Assembly (NCBI RefSeq): GCF_030144855.1
Contig: NC_082714.1
Location: 18,104,001 to 18,168,000, forward strand
Source: Hypanus sabinus
Taxonomy: Eukaryota
Reading direction: 5' to 3'
Length of the DNA stretch: 64,000 nt
In this document: positions 1 to 49,829 of the stretch, in pieces
Layout: each line of letters starts with the position of its first letter
How positions within the stretch are numbered: the stretch's first letter is position 1
Position numbers and translations under genes: made by a program
Notes under the pieces: model-generated
Seen by the model: only the letters and a program-made list of their open reading frames with translations
Database searches by the model: none
Told to the model about the DNA's origin: nothing

Positions 1-1673
1 TGCACTACTGAGAACACTGCATGATTTCCATCATGATCCTTATAACAAGAGCCATCTACGAACAGAACCTTTTTATCTGCATCCTCTAGTGGTTCTGACC
101 GTAAATCTGCTCTCAATTTGGCAAAGGTCATCGTCTTCCCTACACAATCATGGGGTTCTCCTTCATAGCCCAAAGGGACAAAATCGGCTATATTACTGGT
201 AGTGCATCTCTGTATAGTTATGTCAGGAAATGTCAATAGCATCTGATATGCTACTATCCTGGCTGGCGTCAGCACAAATTTCCTTCTTTCCAGCAATTCT
301 GCTACTTTGTGGTGTGTGTACAGAGTCACAGGATAGCCCAGGGTTACAGATGATGCCTTTTCATATGCATAGTACAGCGCCGCCACAGGGTGGATACTCC
401 TGAGCCACCTCATCTAGTCTCGTACTGTAGTATGCTATCGGCTGCTTTGCTTTTCCTGTGCCTGTCTCTTGTGTTAGAACCGCTGTGACATAACCCTCCT
501 GTCGGTTGGATACATACAAATGAAAAACCTTCTCATAGTCAGGCAAAGCTAATGCTGGTGCTGACTGCAATTCCTGCTTAATAGTATTGAAAGCTATCTC
601 TGCCTCTCCATTCCACTGTAAGCCGTTCTTCAAATTGGTATGTCCTGCTTTCATTATCTTTCTCAAAGGTGCCACAATCTCAGCATTTTCTCTTATCCAA
701 TCTGAGCTGTACCCTGCCATTCCCAAAAACGTCATCATCTGCCCTACAGTCTGGGATTTTGGGGCCTCAGTTATTGCCTCAATCTGATCTGGTGCTATCG
801 CCTTCACTCCCTTGGAGATTACCCTGCCTAAGTATTCCACTTGCTGCGTGCAAAATTGCAGTTTCTTTTTGGATATTTTATGTCCTCCGTGCGCCAGCTT
901 CTCTAACAGAGTTATAGTGTCCTGCTTACACTGTTCCTTACTGTGGGAGCAAATCGACAGGTCATCCACATACTGTAACAATGTACTTTCCAATGGTATG
1001 CCCTCTAGGTCTGCCTTCAACACCTGATTAAAAACATGTGGTGAATGTTTAAACCCTTACTTCTGGTATAGGTATACTGAGCACCTCTGTAAGTAAATGC
1101 AAACAGATACTGACACTGGTCGGCTAGAGGAATGCTGAAGAAAGCCGAACACAAATCAATCACTGAAAAGTAACTTGCTTCTAGTGGAACATTAGTCAAA
1201 AGCGTGTGTGGGTTGGGGACTATCGCTGGCCAGTCCTCTACCACGTTGTTTACCACTCGCAAATCATGCACCAATCTCCACTTAGATTTATCTACTTTTA
1301 AGATGGGCAGCAACTGGGTATTGCATGGACTGTTTGTTCTTTTAAGCACTCCTATTTCAAGCAACCCAGGCACTGTCGATGCTATTTCCTCTTCTGCTTC
1401 TGGTCTTAGAGGGTATTGTGGTCTCCTGGGTGGAATTGCTCCCCTTTTCAGCCTTATTTCCACCGGACTAGCTGTTTTTATTTTCCCTACGTCCGTGTCA
1501 TGTTGTGACCACAGAATCGATGGCAACTCATCTAACCTATCTTTCTGCTGGCCTCTTTCCTTTCCCAGCAATGGCATGTGTGGTTGGGAAGTTATTTCGA
1601 CCTCTCTCACTGTCCCTACCATATCTACACTTACCATTATTTTAATGCAATTGTTGTCTTTTGATATCCACAC
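1..1673 (-). pseudogene. pol: ERV pol: reverse transcriptase, connection domain and start of RNase H (frameshifted)
   Basis: ORF 1017-1673 (WRLVHDLRVVN, IDLCSAFFSIP, YLFAFTY) and ORF 361-1023 (LLQYVDD, YLG, FLGMAGY, PIAYYS). A further frame reads VLFVDGSCY near position 45-70. Confidence 0.93.
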
Positions 1674-1699
1674 CTCTGGCGTGATTTTCCTCTACACTG

Positions 1700-2080
1700 T
1701 TATGGTTTCAGCACTCTTAACGAAGGGTCCCAAGTCTTTAGACTGATATCCCTTGTTTACCAACAACGTTACGTGGGGTGCAGCCTACGGTATCCTGCAC
1801 CATTTTTCTAAAAAGGTGTTCCACTTAACTTGTAAAGCTGCCCCTTGCTTTCCAATTATCACAGCCTCCCCTTCCAGGTGCTGTTGGGTACATGCCTCCA
1901 GGTGCCATCTCTCCTCTAACTCCCTGTTCTGAGTCTCGTCTAAAATCACTGTACAATGTAGCTCAGATTTGGGCATTACAGCCCTGGGTAAATATAGCCT
2001 GCACGCCCTTTTTCCATTTTTCCCAGGCTTCCTGAATCTGATCTGCGATGTCTCCTATCCGAAAGACATTAGCCTTCTTG
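1700..2080 (-). pseudogene. 2H-phosphodiesterase-like (CNPase-like) domain between ERV protease and RT
   Basis: Two HxT motifs in one frame: SELHCTVIL (ORF 1785-1976) and, past one TAG, AAPHVTLLVNKGYQSKDLGPFV (~1719-1784). Confidence 0.7.
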
Positions 2081-2089
2081 TCTTCTCGC

Positions 2090-2490
2090 ATTATCAATTG
2101 AGACCCTGCTCTTTCCACATTCAGCCCATTTCTGGTGCATTCTAATTTTAATTCCAGTTTCAATAAGGCATCTCTGCCTAACAAATTAATCGGAGTTCCT
2201 TTAGATACTAGCACCGGCAAACCAATTCCTTTATTTCCCATTCTCAACTGCACTGGAGCCGTGCACTGTGTCAACTGTGTTTTCCCCGAGAACCCTACCG
2301 TCTTAAACTTTCCTGACATGGGAAGGTGAAGGGCATAATACTGTGGCTGTACACAAGTGTACGTGGCACCAGTATCTATCATCATTGGTGTCAGTTGCCC
2401 TTCTAACATAACCTGAACAATGGATTCCTCGTCTGCCTCCCTTAATATCATTGGGTAATGTCCTTTCCCACTGGAGTTCTCGGGGCACCC
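2090..2490 (-). pseudogene. pro: ERV aspartyl protease
   Basis: MIDTGATYT catalytic motif and PINLLGRDAL in ORF 1963-2799. Confidence 0.92.
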
Positions 2491-4784
2491 GTAATACCTC
2501 GCATAGGAGTTCACAGGTCCGCTTGGGCCTGTGGGGGCTGGTCCTTGACTAAACTTTAGTTCCCTTCTTATCGGTTCCTGCTGGTGTGCGACAGGCCATG
2601 GTGTAAACGGACAATCATTTCTCATGTGAACTGGCTGATTACATCCCCAGTACAGTCTCTCGACCTCTCCTCCCCCCGTTTCCTCACTGGTCCCCTCTGC
2701 CATAGCTCCTCTGTCCCCCTCCTTGGGACTTCCAGTCCTGTCTGAGCTGTTTGAATTTAGTCTGTTCCTGATAGGGCACTTGTGGGAATGTTCCTCCAAA
2801 GACGTTGATTATTGGCATGGGGCTTTCCAGCCCTTGTCTTACAGTATGATCGGTTCCTCCATATACTGGTGCTTCATCCAGTTCGATGGCTGTACTCAGA
2901 CACCACGGTGGTTGCTGGCAGCATCGTTTTGCTTTTCTCTTTTTCCTTCTTTTTGAGTTCTTCGAGCTGCATTTGTATTAACTTTCTTTGCACCTCTTCC
3001 TGCTGCTCAGCCAACCTTCGTTTGTCTTTCCGGTATTTCTTAACCGCATGGACTACGTGGTCTCTAAATTCTTGTGGGATCATTGACATCAGCCCAACCA
3101 CTTCCTCCAGTTTGGATTTTGCTTGCGGAGGCACTGCATCCAAAATGCTATGTCATAACAGTGGTGATAAATAAGCTATTTTCCACCTCTTGCTCAGTCT
3201 CCACCTTTTCAACTGGTTTTCTACGTAGGCTGCTGGGTTTTCAGTGACTCCCAGTGGATCCCCCTTGGGTAGATAAAGCTTCCTGAGGGCCTGCCATACC
3301 CTCTGCCTCACTCTGTCAAACCTGTCTCCATCAGATCTCGGGTCGTTCGAGTTTACTATTCCAGCCATTTCCATTAATTCGTTAAATTTGGAGGTTCCCA
3401 TCAACCTTATCAATAGTGCCTTCAAATCTCCCATAGCCAATAATCCTCCCGCCGTTTCTTCTTCAAAGGCTCTAATCCATTTCCCTGCTCCTTCATGTAG
3501 ATTGGGCAGAGTGTTTTTCAGCCCTTCTAGGTCCTGGGATCCCCAAGGGATGTACTGCACTTGTCCTGATCCTTTAACTAACAACGGCATCATTTTTCCA
3601 CCTTCTTCCCACCTGCCCTGGCTCTCCTCCTCCCCTGACTCCCCATCTGTCTCAGTGTATGACTTTATTGCCTCCCACACAAATTTCTCCGGGGTCCTCT
3701 TCTTCCCTTGGTCTCCCTGTGGAGTCCTTTCTTTCTGTCTTGATTCAATACTTGCTTGGCCCCTGGAGTATTTTTCGCATCTCCTCTGGCAATCCCCTCT
3801 CAGTAACTTATCTAGCTCTCTTTCTACTTCTGCAAGTCGCTCCCCTACCGCCTTCTTCTGCTCTTCTAGGCTTCTGCCTCCTACCTCTTCCCCACAAATT
3901 CTCGCATCCTCTCTCTCTCCACTTAACTCTTGCTCCTCCAATGAGTCACCTTCTCTTTCTTCCTGTCCGTGTCTGTACACCTGTGGCAGGGACTCCTCAT
4001 GATCCTTACTCGTGCTTGATTCCCTTCTCTCTTATGTTTCTCCAAGACTGTCATCTATCTTTTTTCCACTTCCTCTTGAATGCCTCATCTCTTCCTGCCC
4101 TGATGAGCCACTTTCTTTTCTAGTCTGTTTATTTCTATGGTATAACCCATACTCCTTTTCCTCTCTCAAGTATTTCATTCATTCAATCTCTTCTTTCATT
4201 TCTCTTTGCCTGTTCCACCTTTATCCTTTCTGCCTGTATCTCCTTCCATATCGGCACTTTTTCCTTCTCGTATTGTTTTTTTTTCCTCCTCATTATCCCA
4301 AACTTGTACCTCTCCCTGCATGTTTACTGTTCCCATCAGCAGGGGGCACTGCTTAGGGGTTCCTTCCTCATTATAGGGAGGGGGCTTTTCTGTTTCTTTC
4401 GCATCCGGGTACGGAGCTGAAGTCAGCTTCTCACTGTACCTTCCTCTCTCTCTAACAGGCTGTTTCTCCAGCACCTTAGTGTCTTCCCCGCTTGTAATCA
4501 ATATTCCACCTGTCCTCTTCAGCCTTTCTCCCTCCGTTCTGAAGAGTTTTAGCACTTCCATTTCTCGTTCTTTTTGCCCTCTTTTCTTAGATTTATCTTT
4601 TGGTTTGTGATTTTTAATTAGTGCCTCCATTTCTTCGCACAAGCTTACATCAAACGTTCCTTCTCTTGGCCATTTTGTGACCAGGTTTTTGGTTCCCTTT
4701 TCCCATTTAAGTTTTTGTGATCTCATATTTATTTACCAGGATTTTTTTGCTCAGAATTTCTACAGCCGTTCCTTTATCTGTCAT
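2491..4784 (-). pseudogene. gag: ERV gag (MA, acidic spacer, CA, NC), broken by frameshifts
   Basis: Likely ATG at 4784 (MTDKGTAVEILSKK). ORFs 4196-4726 (WPREGTFD, PPPY), 3153-3980 (YIPWGSQDL, LHEGAGKWIRAFEE), 2874-3143, and YWGCNQPVHMRNDC (degenerate zinc knuckle). Confidence 0.85.
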
Positions 4785-5416: not shown

Positions 5417-5434
5417 GTCCTGCCTTGGTCGCCA
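5417..5434 (-). promoter_or_regulatory. Primer binding site, tRNA-Arg-like
   Basis: TGGCGACCAAGGCAGGAC 4 nt after the LTR-terminal CA; 16/18 match to the recalled complement of the vertebrate tRNA-Arg(TCG) 3' end (TGGCGACCGCGGCAGGAC). Confidence 0.75.
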
Positions 5435-5438
5435 ATTT

Positions 5439-5902
5439 TGTCGTGGTTTCTCGTGCCCCACAAACGACCAGGAGATGTAGAAGATTCTTCAAGTATTGAA
5501 CTTTAATTTGCAAATCAAAGCTGAGACAGTCATTGAGCTAGTTGCTGATTGCCCACAGATCCTTGTACATAGCATTTTTTACAACAATCCCCTGGTTTAG
5601 TTGCATTAGCATATCCAATAGGTCTACAGTTGCGTATCACAAGTACAGCCACCACTATTGTTTCTACCCATTGACTTAATCATGTTCTAATCTACATCTC
5701 TTAGCTACCTCTCATTAACACACCATTATAATCTACAACTCTTCACTAGCCTCTCATTAACACCCCATTATCTTCTACATTCTTAAGATTTCATTCTCCT
5801 ACTAAATTGGATACCTGCATAGCAAATAGCAAGCTCAAAGCTGACTACATAGTTTTGGTTACACAGCAAACAATGCAACTTTTATACTCCAATACTTTCA
5901 CA
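5439..5902 (-). repeat. ERV 5' LTR (~464 bp)
   Basis: Minus strand starts TGTGAAAG and ends CGACA next to the PBS. ATTAAA at ~5502-5507, TATA-like TGTAAAAAA at ~5575-5583, ~42-bp tandem repeat in U3 (~5700-5790). The outer boundary cannot be confirmed without the 3' LTR. Confidence 0.75.
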
Positions 5903-7329: not shown

Positions 7330-8400
7330 TGGTGCCGGTCAGTGTGCGGCACATGGGCCTTAAAACTCCCAATTAAACTCGGGAAGGATCGCGGGCAAGC
7401 AGCCTACTAAAAGTCGGCAAGCAGCCACGATTAATCGTAGTGAGCGTTCCTGTCTATGGCAGTCTCTGCCCCACAAGAAACCTCAATATTTCGCGTCGTG
7501 GATAAGTTTTTACCTTCCGCCGCCTCCATCCTCCCGTTTCTCGATCCAGTACCCGCCGCCGCGTACGTGCGCGTACCCCTACGAGCGCGTGAGTACCTTC
7601 GCGTCCCCCGCCGTGTGATGTCACGTCACGGCGGCGGGCACGCACACTGCCACCTCAGATCGAGTTGTTCCGGCATCAAACCTTGACGGGCTGTCAATGC
7701 GGCACGATTGACGCGCATCCTGTCCACTCACCAAGTAGATTGCGGAGACGGCTGTCCGCGTAGACGTATAGGAAAGAGCTCTGGATGTGACGGGGCGGGG
7801 ACTCGTGTGGTTGAAAGGGCGGGGCGGGGAGGGGGGGTGCTGCTCCATGCACAATAAAAACAGTGAGTGGGGGTGGCCGACCCTTGGCTGGAAGCTGAGC
7901 GGAGTGTCGGGTTATTAACCCAGGTGGGTGACTGTCGGGCACGGGCAGTGACCGGAACATACGAGGTTGGTAGGGAACGGTGGTCCTTTCAGCCTGAGGC
8001 CTGCGGGTCTGGAGCTGGCTTGTCCCACCCCGGCTGTTTGCCCCTACTTGCTACCCAGTGCCTCACCTCATTAGCCCCGCTCAACCTAGGTTTCGACTTC
8101 GCCCTCTAACGACCTCAACTTCCTCCATTCCCTTCCTCGAGGCCGCACCTCATTTCTTCCCCAGTCCTCGCCCGACCCTCGGGACGGTGATGCCTTTCAG
8201 CGAAGCGCTCGTTTCCCTTTCCAGGGGCTAGTGTACTGCTGTCACAACACCCCCCCCCCCACCTCCAAACTACGAGTTTGGTAGGAACAACAGTGACTGG
8301 GTTCGCCCTCCTGATCAACTTGAGGTAAATACCCCGCCCGCCGTTTGATGTGCTGTGGGGAGGGATATGGCTGGCTGGGGCTGAGTTTTTGTTGCAACGC
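7330..8400. promoter_or_regulatory. CpG island / bidirectional promoter for NUBP2 and SPSB3
   Basis: CpG-dense. CRE/ATF-like TGATGTCACGTCA at ~7616-7628; GC boxes at 7791-7800 and ~7817-7829; candidate non-coding exon-1 donors for SPSB3 at 7863 (gtgagt) and 7924 (gtgggt). Confidence 0.8.
7514..7529 (-). CDS. NUBP2: NUBP2 first coding exon (cytosolic Fe-S cluster assembly factor); later exons lie beyond the left edge
   Basis: ATG GAG GCG GCG GAA G|gtaaaa (MEAAE), 16 nt then a donor, inside a CpG island. Resembles the human NUBP2 N-terminus MEAAAE and sits head-to-head with SPSB3 as in human. Only 5 codons are visible. Confidence 0.7.
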
Positions 8401-45007: not shown

Positions 45008-48000
45008 TAGTCAAGTCTCTTTTATTGTCATTTCAACCATAACTGCTGGTACAGTACACAGTAAAAACGAAACGTTCCTCCAGGACCATGGTGCTGCATT
45101 AAACAACACAAAACTACACTATAGGCTATATGAGACAACACAAAACTACACTAGACTACGTGAAACAACACAAAACTACACTGGACTACGTGAAACAACA
45201 CAAAACTACACTGGACTACATGAAACAACACAAAACTACACTAGACTACATGAAACAACACAAAACTACACTAGACTACGTGAAACAACACAAAACTACA
45301 CTGGACTACGTGAAACAACACAAAACTACACTGGACTACGTGAAACAACACAAAACTACATTGGACTACCTGAAACAACACAAAACTACACTAGACTACG
45401 TGAAACAACACAAAACTACACTGGACTACGTGAAACAACACAAAACTACACTAGACTACGTGAAACAACACAAAACTACACTGGACTACGTGAAACAACA
45501 CAAAACTACACTAGACTACGTGAAACATCACAAAACTACACTGGACTACGTGAAACAGCACAAAACTACACTGGACTACGTGAAACAGCACAAAACTACA
45601 CTAGACTACGTGAAACAACACAAAACTACACTAGACTACGTGAAAAAGCACAAAACTACACTAGACTACGTGAAACATGAAAAAACTACACTGGACTACG
45701 TGAAACAACACAAAACTACACTGGACTACGTGAAACAACACAAAACTACACTGGACTACGTGAAACAACACAAAACTACACTAGACTACGTGAAACAACA
45801 CAAAACTACACTAGACTACGTGAAACAACACAAAACTACACTGGACTACGTGAAACAACACAAAACTACACTAGACTACGTGAAACAGCACAAAACTACA
45901 CTGGACTACGTGAAACAACACAAAACTACATTGGACTACCTGAAACAACACAAAACTACACTAGACTACGTGAAACAACACAAAACTACACTGGACTACG
46001 TGAAACAACACAAAACTACACTGGACTACGTGAAACAACACAAAACTACACTAGACTACGTGAAACAACACAAAACTACACTGGACTACGTGAAACAACA
46101 CAAAACTACACTAGACTACGTGAAACATCACAAAACTACACTGGACTACGTGAAACAGCACAAAACTACACTGGACTACGTGAAACAGCACAAAACTACA
46201 CTAGACTACGTGAAACAACACAAAACTACACTAGACTACGTGAAAAAGCACAAAACTACACTAGACTACGTGAAACATGAAAAAACTACACTGGACTACG
46301 TGAAACGACACAAAACTACACTGGACTACGTGAAACAACACAAAACTACACTGGACTACGTGAAACAACACAAAACTACACTGGACTACGTGAAACAACA
46401 CAAAACTACACTAGACTACGTGAAACAACACAAAACTACACTGGACTACGTGAAACAACACAAAACTACACTAGACTACGTGAAACAGCACAAAACTACA
46501 CTGGACTACGTGAAACATGAAAAAACTACACTAGGCTACATGAGACAAGACAAAACTACACTAGACTACGTGAAACAACACAAAACTACACTGGACTACG
46601 TGAAACAACACAAAACTACACTGGACTACGTGAAACAACACAAAACTACACTGGACTACGTGAAACAACACAAAACTACACTGGACTACGTGAAACAACA
46701 CAAAACTACACTGGACTACGTGAAACAACACAAAACTACACTGGACTACGTGAAACAACACAAAACTACACTGGACTACGTGAAACAACACAAAACTACA
46801 CTGGACTACGTGAAACAACACAAAACTACACTGGACTACGTGAAACAACACAAAACTACACTGGACTACGTGAAACAACACAAAACTACACTAGACTACG
46901 TGAAACAGCACAAAACTACACTGGACTACGTGAAACATGAAAAAACTACACTAGGCTACATGAGACAAGACAAAACTACACTAAACTACGTGAAACAACA
47001 CAAAACTACACTAGACTACGTGAAACAACACAAAACTACACTGGACTACGTGAAACATGAAAAAACTACACTAGGCTACGTGAGACAAGACAAAACTACA
47101 CTAGACTACGTGAAACAACACAAAACTACACTGGACTACGTGAAACAACACAAAACTACACTGGACTACGTGAAACAACACAAAACTACACTGGACTACG
47201 TGAAACAACACAAAACTACACTGGACTACGTGAAACAACACAAAACTACACTGGACTACGTGAAACATCACAAAACTACACTGGACTACGTGAAACAACA
47301 CAAAACTACACTGGACTACGTGAAACAACACAAAACTACACTAGACTACGTGAAACAGCACAAAACTACATTAGACTTCAGACTTACACGGGACTGCATA
47401 AAGAGCACAAAACAGTGCAAGACAGTACAATAATTAATAATCAAGATAATAGGCACAGCAAAGGGCAAATTACAATATAATAATAAATCATGTAAATGTA
47501 ACAATGTTCTAGCGGGAATTGAGAAAAATGAGCAAAAAATGCAAAGGGGGTGGAGTGGTGTTCAGTTGAGTGAGTTCTGATGGCCTGAGGGAAGAAACTG
47601 TTACACAGTCAGGTCGTGATAGCTTGAATGCTTCGGTACCTTTTGCCAGATGGTAGGAGGGAGAAGAGTTTGTATGAGGGCTGCGTGGGGTCCGTCACAA
47701 TGCTGTTAGCTTTGCGGATGCAGCATGTGGTGTAAACGTCTGCAATGGCGGGAGGAGAGACCCCGATGATCCGAACCAGGCAGTAATGCAGCTGCTCAGG
47801 ATGCTCTCGGTACATCCTCTGTAGAACGTGGCGAGGATGGGGGGGGTTGGGAGATGGACTTTTCTCAGCCTTCGCAGAAAGTAGAGACGCTGCTGGGTTT
47901 TCTTGGCTATGGAACTGCTGTTGAGGGATCAAGTGAGATTCTCCGCCAGGTGAACACCAAGAAATTTGGTGCTCTTAACGACCTCTACAGAGGAGCCGTC

Positions 48001-49468
48001 GATGTTCAGAGGAGAGTGGTCGCTCTGTGTTCTCCTGAAGTCAACAACCATGTTTGTTTTGTTCACATTCAGAGACAGGTTGTTGGTTGTGCACCAGTCT
48101 GTTAGCCGCTGCACCTCCTCTTTGTATGCTGACTCGTCGTTCTTGCTGCTGAGACCCACCACGGTCATGTCATCGGCGAACCTGATGATGTAATTCGAAC
48201 TTTGTATTGGGGCACAGTCGTGGGTCAGCAGAGTGAACAGCAGACTGAACACACAGCCTGGGTGGGGGGGGGGGGGTGCTCAGTCTGGTGGTGTTGGAGA
48301 TGCTGCTCCCGATCCGGACTGCCTGAGGTCTCCCAGTCAGGAAGTCTAGAATCCAGTTGCAGAGGGAGGTGTTCAGGCCCAGCAGGCTCAGCTTTTCAGT
48401 CAGGTGCTGAGGAATGATTGTGTTGAATGCTGAACTGAAACTTATGAACAGCATCCGAATGTACGTGTCTTTTTTGTCCAGGTGGAGGTTGGTTGCGATG
48501 GCGTCGTCTGTTGAGCGGTTGGGATGATAGCGAACTGCAGGAGGTCCAGTGAGGGGGGGGCAGCAGGATCTTGATATGCCTCATGACGAGCCTCTCGAAA
48601 CACTTCATGATGATGGATGTGAGTGAAACGGGACGGTAGTCGTTGAGGCAGGACACTGAGGACTTCTTCAGCACGGGGACAATGGTGGGGGCCTTGAAGC
48701 ACGTTAGAACGACGGCGCTGCTCAGGGAGATGCTGAAGATGTCGGTGAGAACACCTGTCTGCACATTCTCTGAGCACTCTGCCAGGAATATTGTCTGGTC
48801 CAACAGCCTTCCGTGGATTGACCCTACATAGAGTTTTCCTCACATCAGCCACGTAAGTACACAGCACCTGGTCATTGGGAGGAGGGGTGGTCTTCCTCGC
48901 GACCACATCATCTTCCGCCTCAAAACGAGCGTAGAAGTTGTTCAGCGCATCTGGGAGGGAGGCATCACCAGCACAGGCAGGTGATGTTGTCCTGTAGTTG
49001 GTGTTGTCCTGAATGCCCTTACACATGCGCCGTGTCGCTGCTGTCCTGGAAATGGCCGTGGATTCGCTGGGCGTGTGAACGCTTTGCCTCTCTAACAGCT
49101 CGGGACAGTTTGGCCCTCACTGTTGTTAGGGCTGCCTTATCACCTGCTCTGACGGCGGAGTCCCGGGTCCTCAGCAGCGCACGCACCTCCGCGGTCATCC
49201 ATGGCTTCTGGTTGGAGCGTGTAGTGATGGTCTTGGACACAATGCACTTGCTGATGTAGCTCGTCACTGTTTCTGTGTACTCCTCTAAGTTGGTGGAGTC
49301 GCCATCGGTTGCAGCCTCCCTGAACTTGTGCCAGTCAGTGTGCTCAAAGCAGTTCTGATGAGCAGAGGTGGCTCCTGCTGGCCAGGTTTTCACCTGTTTC
49401 AAAACTGGTCCGGAGCGTCTGACGAGCGGTCTGTTTGCTGGAATTAGCATAATAGAGACGTGGTCATC
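45008..49468 (-). mobile_element. 5'-truncated Rex1/Babar-type LINE with an expanded 3' UTR
   Basis: Frameshifted ORF2 pieces: [49 protein letters not shown]. 3' end aataaaa...gacttgact at ~45008-45026. Confidence 0.88.
45100..47380 (+). repeat. 30-bp tandem array (~75 units, tgaaacaacacaaaactacactrgactacg)
   Basis: Strict 30-bp period with no indels between 45131 and 47380. Confidence 0.99.
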
Positions 49469-49829
49469 TCTGTGGTCATCATGGGTAAAGTTTTACCCAT
49501 GAAAAGTAATTGAGCTACAATCTTTGTATAAAATGTAGCGCCTGCTCCCGCGGTGTAGTTGTGGGAACTGGCGCTGATGTATTTAAAGCGACACTGGAAG
49601 GAGAAAGCAACATAACTGAGGACTGGTATGAACGTTGTGGGTTGAAGACTCTGGTTCTGTGCTTAAAAGGTGGATGAAGTGAAGGCATAGTTTTGCTAAA
49701 TCTAAATACCACAGATGCTTGAAATGTGAAATAAAAAGAGAAAGTGCAGGTCAAGAGGCACCTGTGCAAAGGGAAACAGAACTTCATGAAGGACAGTCTG
49801 ATGCACATGCTCCCGACTTCAACCATGCT

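What the first reader, a model, noticed from the sequence alone, without database searches (positions are those of the whole stretch)
1700..2080. ERV pol carries a 2H-phosphodiesterase-like accessory domain between protease and RT
Seen: more than 100 extra codons separate protease from RT, with two HxT motifs (LHCT and PHVTL) about 60 residues apart in one frame, broken by TAG codons. Established: paired HxT/S motifs define the 2H phosphoesterase superfamily (vertebrate CNPase HCT/HIT; coronavirus ns2 and rotavirus VP3 2',5'-PDEs). A 2H domain has been noted in some fish retroviral polyproteins and is absent from MLV-type pol. Inference: a virion-packaged nucleotide phosphodiesterase, perhaps acting on RNA 2',3'-cyclic ends or on innate-immune second messengers. 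I know of no functional characterisation in this lineage.
Basis: partly seen in the sequence, partly recalled or inferred. Interest (0 to 1): 0.75.

Follow-up and report, generated by a model that had tools for sequence, protein, structure and literature searches.

The report
CNPase-like enzyme inside a stingray retrovirus
A dead endogenous retrovirus in a stingray-like genome carries, between its protease and reverse transcriptase, an extra domain with two conserved catalytic-type histidine motifs that is predicted to fold like the vertebrate enzyme CNPase and likely opened cyclic-phosphate ends; such domains were already noted in fish retroviruses, and I found no test of their job.

Summary
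Observation confirmed. On the minus strand, about 170 extra codons (window 2079-1590) separate protease from RT. HCT (1958) and HVT (1775) lie in one frame, 61 codons apart; two TAGs and one frameshift break this copy. Both histidines are kept in 26 of 26 sister copies that cover them and in 55 of 60 distant relatives, the named ones from fish. The predicted fold matches mouse CNPase best (Z 15.9; viral 2-5A and cGAMP enzymes 6.6-8.5), and a profile comparison aligns both motifs and helix alpha7. It is CNPase-like, not a CNPase: the Arg307 and Val321 positions differ and Pfam CNPase is not hit. Best reading: a Gag-Pol-borne 2',3'-cyclic phosphodiesterase; activity and role are untested. 2-5A is an unlikely general substrate, because ray-finned fish lack OAS-RNase L yet their ERVs keep the motifs. 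In walleye virus WEHV1 the fold match is to Env while Pol lacks the domain. The domain is already described in fish retroviruses, and this scan found it before in two other cartilaginous-fish genomes. New member of a known kind.

The parts
1590..2079 (-). CNPase-like 2H phosphoesterase domain in Pol (about 165 codons), broken in this copy by one frameshift and two TAG codons
   Evidence: Fold models and searches, profile comparison, conservation
1950..1958 (-). First Hx[T/S] motif (HCT), equivalent to CNPase His230-x-Thr232
1767..1775 (-). Second Hx[T/S] motif (HVT), equivalent to CNPase His309-x-Thr311
1703..1739 (-). KDLG motif and following helix, matching the CNPase beta5-alpha7 loop and helix alpha7
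   Evidence: Helix in both models; Gly at His2+15 in 57 of 60 viral and 70 of 71 CNPase domains
2143..2430 (-). Retroviral aspartyl protease (DTG at 2376)
   Evidence: Pfam RVP E 2.9e-9
1..1535 (-). Reverse transcriptase and start of RNase H, with frameshifts and stops; continues beyond the window's left end
   Evidence: tblastn of a natural Pol, 51-61% identity; landmarks
2490..4740 (-). Degraded gag region with a damaged zinc knuckle near 2650-2620; boundaries approximate
   Evidence: Translation; intact CCHC in the protease frame ahead of a TAG in 9 of 22 copies where the protease site was found. Pfam found no family in two gag pieces
5417..5434 (-). Primer-binding-site-like sequence starting TGG just inside the 5' LTR; the tRNA was not identified
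   Evidence: sequence
5439..5894 (-). 5' LTR; its partner lies outside the window (L033:5406-5823); 4-base target-site duplication CTTT

Best explanation
This is a broken copy of a high-copy class I endogenous retrovirus whose Pol carries, between protease and RT, a domain predicted to have the CNPase type of 2H fold, which in the living virus was likely an active 2',3'-cyclic phosphodiesterase carried into the particle with Gag-Pol. Shown: position, motifs, their conservation, the breaks in this copy. Predicted: the fold and its closeness to CNPase. Inferred: (1) the domain was made by readthrough of the gag TAG as part of Gag-Pro-Pol and so was packaged beside RT, the genome and the tRNA primer; (2) the two histidines did acid-base catalysis with the two Thr/Ser holding the phosphate, an aromatic residue stacking the base and the alpha7 loop placing the water, as in CNPase, giving a 2'-phosphate and a free 3'-OH; (3) the substrate was a cyclic-phosphate end on RNA or a small nucleotide, most simply ends left on primer tRNA or viral RNA by metal-independent host RNases. 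Odds: 2H fold 0.97; active enzyme in the ancestor 0.85; 2',3'-cyclic phosphate as substrate 0.55; RNA-end healing as the selected role about 0.3.
For: Models at mean pLDDT 94.3 (natural sister copy, whole domain) and 92.1 (window copy with X at the stops). Against 48,161 chains the top hit is mouse CNPase: Z 15.9, rmsd 3.6, 164 aligned and Z 12.7, rmsd 2.4, 129 aligned; next best 9.7 and 5.9. All 41 Foldseek PDB rows listed are CNPase or RICH (best E 4.4e-6). ESM Atlas: CNPase cluster TM 0.80 by structure, fungal tRNA-ligase CPD clusters 0.95 by features. HHalign of 60 viral against 71 CNPase domains: probability 95.8, both motifs in register; 30 column shuffles reached at most 2.1. Both His in 55 of 60 and both full Hx[T/S] in 48 of 60 relatives whose domains average about 31% identity in the 22 tested pairwise. 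Aromatic at the Phe235 position in 49 of 60 and in 24 of 26 sister copies. A TAG 38 codons before the protease Asp in 15 of 22 copies, and protease, domain and RT landmarks in one stop-free frame in 4 of 30 copies. CNPase chemistry and the alpha7 loop as unique to CNPase: PMC4643303, passages read.
Against: No activity data exist in what I could search. Identity to CNPase is only 11-16%. CNPase Arg307 (70 of 71) is mostly Val/Ala in the viral domains and Val321 is Lys/Arg in 51 of 60, so the pocket differs. None of 47 proteins scanned hit Pfam CNPase. Within the family the domain shows only weak constraint (dN/dS 0.66, 95% 0.46-0.96, 23 copies; RT N-part 0.52), as expected mostly from decay after insertion. 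Many related viruses lack it (8 of 30 in the tree), so it is not essential to reverse transcription. In walleye viruses the match is to Env, which weakens a role that needs contact with RT. Whether an RT can extend a 2'-phosphate, 3'-OH end is unknown to me.
Confidence: 0.55

Rival explanations
1. The domain degrades cyclic dinucleotides such as 2'3'-cGAMP, damping the DNA-sensing response to reverse transcripts.
For: Other viral 2H enzymes do this (phage Acb1, avian poxvirus PDE; PMC11410667, passages). The pocket differs from CNPase, with a basic residue at the Val321 position. A close relative gives a weak Acb1 profile hit across both motifs (E 0.14, below cut-off). A cytoplasm-facing place in either Pol or Env would suit a soluble substrate (inference).
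Against: Acb1 (Z 8.0) and penguinpox cGAMP PDE (Z 6.6) rank far below CNPase (15.9); the CNPase alpha7 element is kept. Gag-Pol delivers few molecules (established for readthrough retroviruses, recalled).
Confidence: 0.2
2. The domain is a 2',5'-phosphodiesterase against the OAS-RNase L pathway, like coronavirus ns2 and rotavirus VP3.
For: Same superfamily (Z 8.5 and 7.7); cartilaginous fish have a working OAS-RNase L pair (PMC10400998, passages).
Against: The pathway was lost in the ancestor of ray-finned fishes (same paper), yet relatives with the domain are annotated from perch, Danio, pipefishes, a herring, a knifefish and a cardinalfish, most with both motifs.
Confidence: 0.07
3. The domain is a non-catalytic decoy or scaffold, for example against host CNP, which blocks HIV-1 particle formation by binding Gag.
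For: Host CNP inhibits HIV-1 assembly independently of its enzyme activity (review PMC5758531, passage).
Against: The catalytic histidines are among the most conserved columns (49 of 50 and 53 of 55) while identity to host CNPase is under 20%.
Confidence: 0.08
4. The domain opens ADP-ribose 1''-2''-cyclic phosphate, working in an NAD/ADP-ribose conflict pathway.
For: 2H domains serve this pathway in viruses (PMC9503650, passages); some ray-finned fish ERVs encode macro domains (PMC4977317, passage).
Against: Plant Appr>p CPDase ranks at Z 7.7; no macro domain appeared in Pfam scans of 44 relatives.
Confidence: 0.07

Closest known systems
2H/CNPase-like domains of fish retroviruses (Mazumder 2002 as cited in PMC9503650; Basta 2009 as cited in PMC4977317; originals not held)
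   Same: CNPase-like 2H domain in an epsilon-like fish retrovirus; relatives from ray-finned fish have it in the same protease-RT slot.
   Different: Host is a cartilaginous fish; the review's section on cartilaginous fish does not mention the domain. I could not read the originals, so I cannot say exactly what placement they report.
Envelope polyproteins of walleye viruses WEHV1 (Q9WHI8) and WDSV (A4GTG3)
   Same: Best named viral fold matches: E 2.7e-11 and 4.0e-8, TM by query 0.77 and 0.75, about 175 columns.
   Different: The match is to Env. WEHV1 Pol (P0139) has a short 198-residue protease-RT spacer and no domain hit. WDSV Env has a cytoplasmic loop of about 170 residues between two membrane helices (PMC3185748, passages); that the match lies in this loop is my inference, as the search gives no target range.
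Vertebrate CNPase catalytic domain (PDB 2xmi, Pfam PF05881)
   Same: Fold (Z 15.9), both motifs, aromatic at Phe235, alpha7 loop with its Gly.
   Different: 13% identity; motifs mostly 59-64 apart against 78-84; Arg307 absent; Val321 is Lys/Arg; no kinase-like N-terminal domain; no Pfam hit.
Viral anti-immune 2H enzymes (MHV ns2, rotavirus VP3, Acb1, penguinpox PDE)
   Same: Same superfamily and catalytic motif pair.
   Different: Structurally more distant (Z 6.6-8.5).

Membership tests
2H phosphoesterase superfamily | Two Hx[T/S] motifs, conserved | tested here: met
   Window; both His in 26 of 26 covered sister copies chosen by RT and 55 of 60 distant relatives
2H phosphoesterase superfamily | 2H fold | tested here: met
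   Predicted models; the top 20 structural hits in both wide searches are nearly all named 2H proteins
2H phosphoesterase superfamily | Histidine-dependent phosphoesterase activity | not testable with these tools
   needs an assay
CNPase family (PF05881) | Match to the Pfam CNPase profile at its cut-off | tested here: not met
   0 of 47 proteins; the same family found only the host gene in the genome
CNPase family (PF05881) | beta5-alpha7 loop and helix alpha7 after the second motif | tested here: met
   feature described in PMC4643303
CNPase family (PF05881) | Aromatic base-stacking residue at Phe235 | tested here: met
   Tyr or Phe in 49 of 60 relatives; Phe in 24 of 26 sister copies, Leu in the window copy
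CNPase family (PF05881) | Arg307 and Val321 | tested here: not met
   Val/Ala in 40 of 60 and Lys/Arg in 51 of 60
CNPase family (PF05881) | 2',3'-cNMP to 2'-NMP activity | not testable with these tools
   needs an assay
Viral 2',5'-PDEs and cGAMP PDEs | Structure closer to ns2/VP3/Acb1/poxvirus PDE than to other 2H groups | tested here: not met
   Z 6.6-8.5 against 15.9 for CNPase
Viral 2',5'-PDEs and cGAMP PDEs | Cleavage of 2-5A or cGAMP | not testable with these tools
   needs an assay
Class I (gamma/epsilon-like) ERV | Paired LTRs with a 4-base target-site duplication | tested here: met
Class I (gamma/epsilon-like) ERV | gag and pro-pol in one frame, separated by a stop codon | tested here: met
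   TAG 38 codons before the protease Asp in 15 of 22 copies, CCHC in the same frame in 9
Class I (gamma/epsilon-like) ERV | Gamma-type TM with CX6CC | tested here: met
   TM remnant with CX6CC; TLV_coat E 3.7e-4, below cut-off
Class I (gamma/epsilon-like) ERV | RT groups with epsilonretroviruses against other genera | tested here: inconclusive
   Tree of 30 relatives includes WEHV1 Pol but no outgroup and not the window's own RT

The most novel reading that the evidence does not exclude
Fish retroviruses keep a CNPase-derived enzyme that has moved between Pol and the cytoplasmic part of Env, and whose changed pocket (Arg307 lost, a basic residue at Val321) takes RNA ends or cyclic dinucleotides: a retroviral nucleotide-level counter-defence enzyme carried inside the particle.
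Probability: 0.3. Interest if true: 0.75.

Novelty: new member of a known kind. Interest (0 to 1): 0.35.

Why it matters
Pol normally holds protease, RT/RNase H and integrase. A further enzyme kept across ERVs of rays, skates, sharks and many bony fish, and found in Env in walleye viruses, points to a host pressure that is not yet identified. The domain has been in print for about two decades, and my searches found no assay, so the fold and pocket comparison here make a cheap test possible. This locus itself is a dead copy and adds one more host group.

Tried and rejected
Sequence searches alone do not name the domain: Pfam on the window piece gave only DUF5797 at E 0.048; phmmer against PDB sequences gave one chance hit; of 40 relatives, 2 gave sub-threshold hits to PF13563. 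Within-family dN/dS was little help; the low RT-core value (0.25) is biased because copies were chosen on that region. The RT tree needs 5 changes of the presence label (shuffles 7.2; 15 of 500 as low) and has no outgroup, so single gain with losses cannot be told from several gains; 22 proteins with and 8 without the domain were used, others were dropped for lacking landmarks. Motif counts in the 30 best domain hits are biased by selection, so I repeated them on copies chosen by RT; 4 of those 30 did not cover the motifs (one deletion, two cut by the locus edge, one with no alignment upstream). Mazumder 2002, Basta 2009, a paper on the salmon swim bladder virus and Schwer 2008 were not held. 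Searches for a functional study returned only the reviews cited; subscription papers and supplements were not seen and may bear on novelty. No complex prediction or read mapping was run.

Full report
The observation. The element is on the minus strand. HCT (1958) and HVT (1775) are in one frame, 61 codons apart, with TAG codons at 1787 and 1694 and a frameshift near 1985-1990. Protease (Pfam RVP, E 2.9e-9) ends near 2143 and RT begins near 1535. The distance from the protease Asp to the RT DLR motif is about 370 codons; in database relatives it is 324-399 with the domain (19 of 30) and mostly 198-220 without (9 of 30). The insert is thus about 170 residues, window 2079-1590. A motif pair at this spacing arises in 258 of 20,000 codon shuffles.

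The element. LTRs lie at window 5439-5894 and L033:5406-5823, with a CTTT target-site duplication and a span of 8,489 bases. The LTRs differ at 22 of 417 aligned bases (K2P 0.055); I give no date because I have no tested rate. In this copy the integrase runs directly into the TM part of env, so the end of integrase and the SU region are missing. The family is large: 906 first-look candidates, of which the 150 scored are 88-94% identical to the window piece apart from the window itself. A TAG stands 38 codons ahead of the protease Asp in 15 of 22 copies where the site was found, which fits gag readthrough (inference from established class I retrovirus biology). The host CNPase exon is 96% identical to a Hemitrygon protein and the domain is 87-90% identical to proteins annotated in Hypanus, so the host is a stingray or close kin.

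Conservation. In 30 copies chosen by RT, 26 cover both motifs; all 26 keep both His and 18 keep both full Hx[T/S]. A search of 50%-identity representatives gave many distant relatives; of 60 with most of the domain, 55 keep both His and 48 both motifs. Named proteins without the domain are from a lizard, sea turtles, a frog and WEHV1. Domain and RT identities correlate across 22 proteins (Spearman 0.50; pairs are not independent). Within the family dN/dS is 0.66 (0.46-0.96) for the domain, a weak signal dominated by decay.

Fold. A natural sister copy of the whole domain folds at pLDDT 94.3 and the window piece, with X at the stops and lacking its first strand and helix, at 92.1. Both match mouse CNPase best: Z 15.9 (rmsd 3.6, 164 aligned) and 12.7 (rmsd 2.4, 129 aligned). 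Other 2H proteins follow well behind: bacterial and archaeal LigT types 8.7-9.7, MHV ns2 8.5, Acb1 8.0, rotavirus VP3 7.7, penguinpox PDE 6.6. Foldseek on PDB lists only CNPase/RICH and the ESM Atlas agrees. A profile comparison, independent of the models, aligns both motifs and the alpha7 Gly (probability 95.8; shuffles at most 2.1). Kept from CNPase: aromatic at Phe235 and the alpha7 loop, which PMC4643303 calls unique to CNPase (passages). Changed: Arg307, whose mutation raises KM but leaves kcat in that paper, and Val321, now Lys/Arg.

Pol or Env. The best viral fold matches are an unnamed entry (Q2VF30_1, E 8.7e-13; I recall it may be the salmon swim bladder virus polyprotein, unverified) and the Env proteins of WEHV1 and WDSV. 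WEHV1 Pol was among my hits and lacks the domain. WDSV Env has a cytoplasmic loop between residues 874 and 1045 (PMC3185748, passages), the size of the domain; that the match lies there is inferred. Both placements would face the cytoplasm and the particle interior. The TM tail remnant of this element is short and gave no family hit.

How it likely works. Shown: position, motifs, conservation, breaks. Predicted: CNPase-type fold. Inferred: synthesis within Gag-Pro-Pol, packaging, and hydrolysis of 2',3'-cyclic phosphates to 2'-phosphate and 3'-OH (0.55), most simply on RNA ends cut by host RNases (about 0.3 as the selected role). cGAMP cleavage is the main rival (0.2). 2-5A is unlikely as the general substrate because ray-finned fishes lost OAS-RNase L (PMC10400998, passages) while their ERVs keep the motifs; a ray lineage could still differ. 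A decoy against host CNP (PMC5758531, passage) fits badly with conserved catalytic residues. This copy itself is non-functional.

What is known. PMC9503650 states that 2H domains occur in fish retroviruses including WDSV, citing Mazumder 2002; PMC4977317 states that some ray-finned fish ERVs encode CNPase or macro domains, citing Basta 2009. I saw these passages only; the originals were not held. PMC11410667 tested viral LigT-like enzymes and has no occurrence of 'retro' or 'CNP' in its main text. Searches found no functional study and no report for cartilaginous fish. The scan noted the same domain in two other cartilaginous-fish genomes.

Verdict. Real, well supported, CNPase-like but not a member of the CNPase family proper; a new member of a known kind whose function is still open. 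Interest 0.35.

Noticed in passing
L033:6288-6554 (minus strand, outside the window): Integrase core runs in frame into the TM part of env (CX6CC); the end of integrase and SU are absent from this copy.
   Followed up: partly
P0079 (database protein): A related Pol with a 329-residue protease-RT spacer, about 125 residues longer than plain Pols, with no hit to the domain profile: a decayed domain or another insert in the same slot.
   Followed up: no
P0042 and P0239: Retroviral Pol pieces with the domain are labelled as bacterial (Cetobacterium, Metamycoplasmataceae MAGs); probably fish host DNA in metagenome bins.
   Followed up: no
window 45101-47377: 30-base tandem array, 75.8 copies, 94% matches, giving long repetitive open frames; probably a minisatellite.
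   Followed up: no
window 7400-8350: GC- and CpG-rich stretch about 1.5 kb beyond the 5' LTR, like a host promoter.
   Followed up: no
window 48442-49492 (minus strand): Fragments that read like a LINE-type element; not tested.
   Followed up: no
L033:2957-3367: DDE_1 transposase remnant (E 3.5e-5) about 2 kb beyond the 3' LTR.
   Followed up: no
window 5688-5786: 42-base unit in 2.4 copies inside the 5' LTR; most of the 46 gap columns between the two LTRs may come from it.
   Followed up: no
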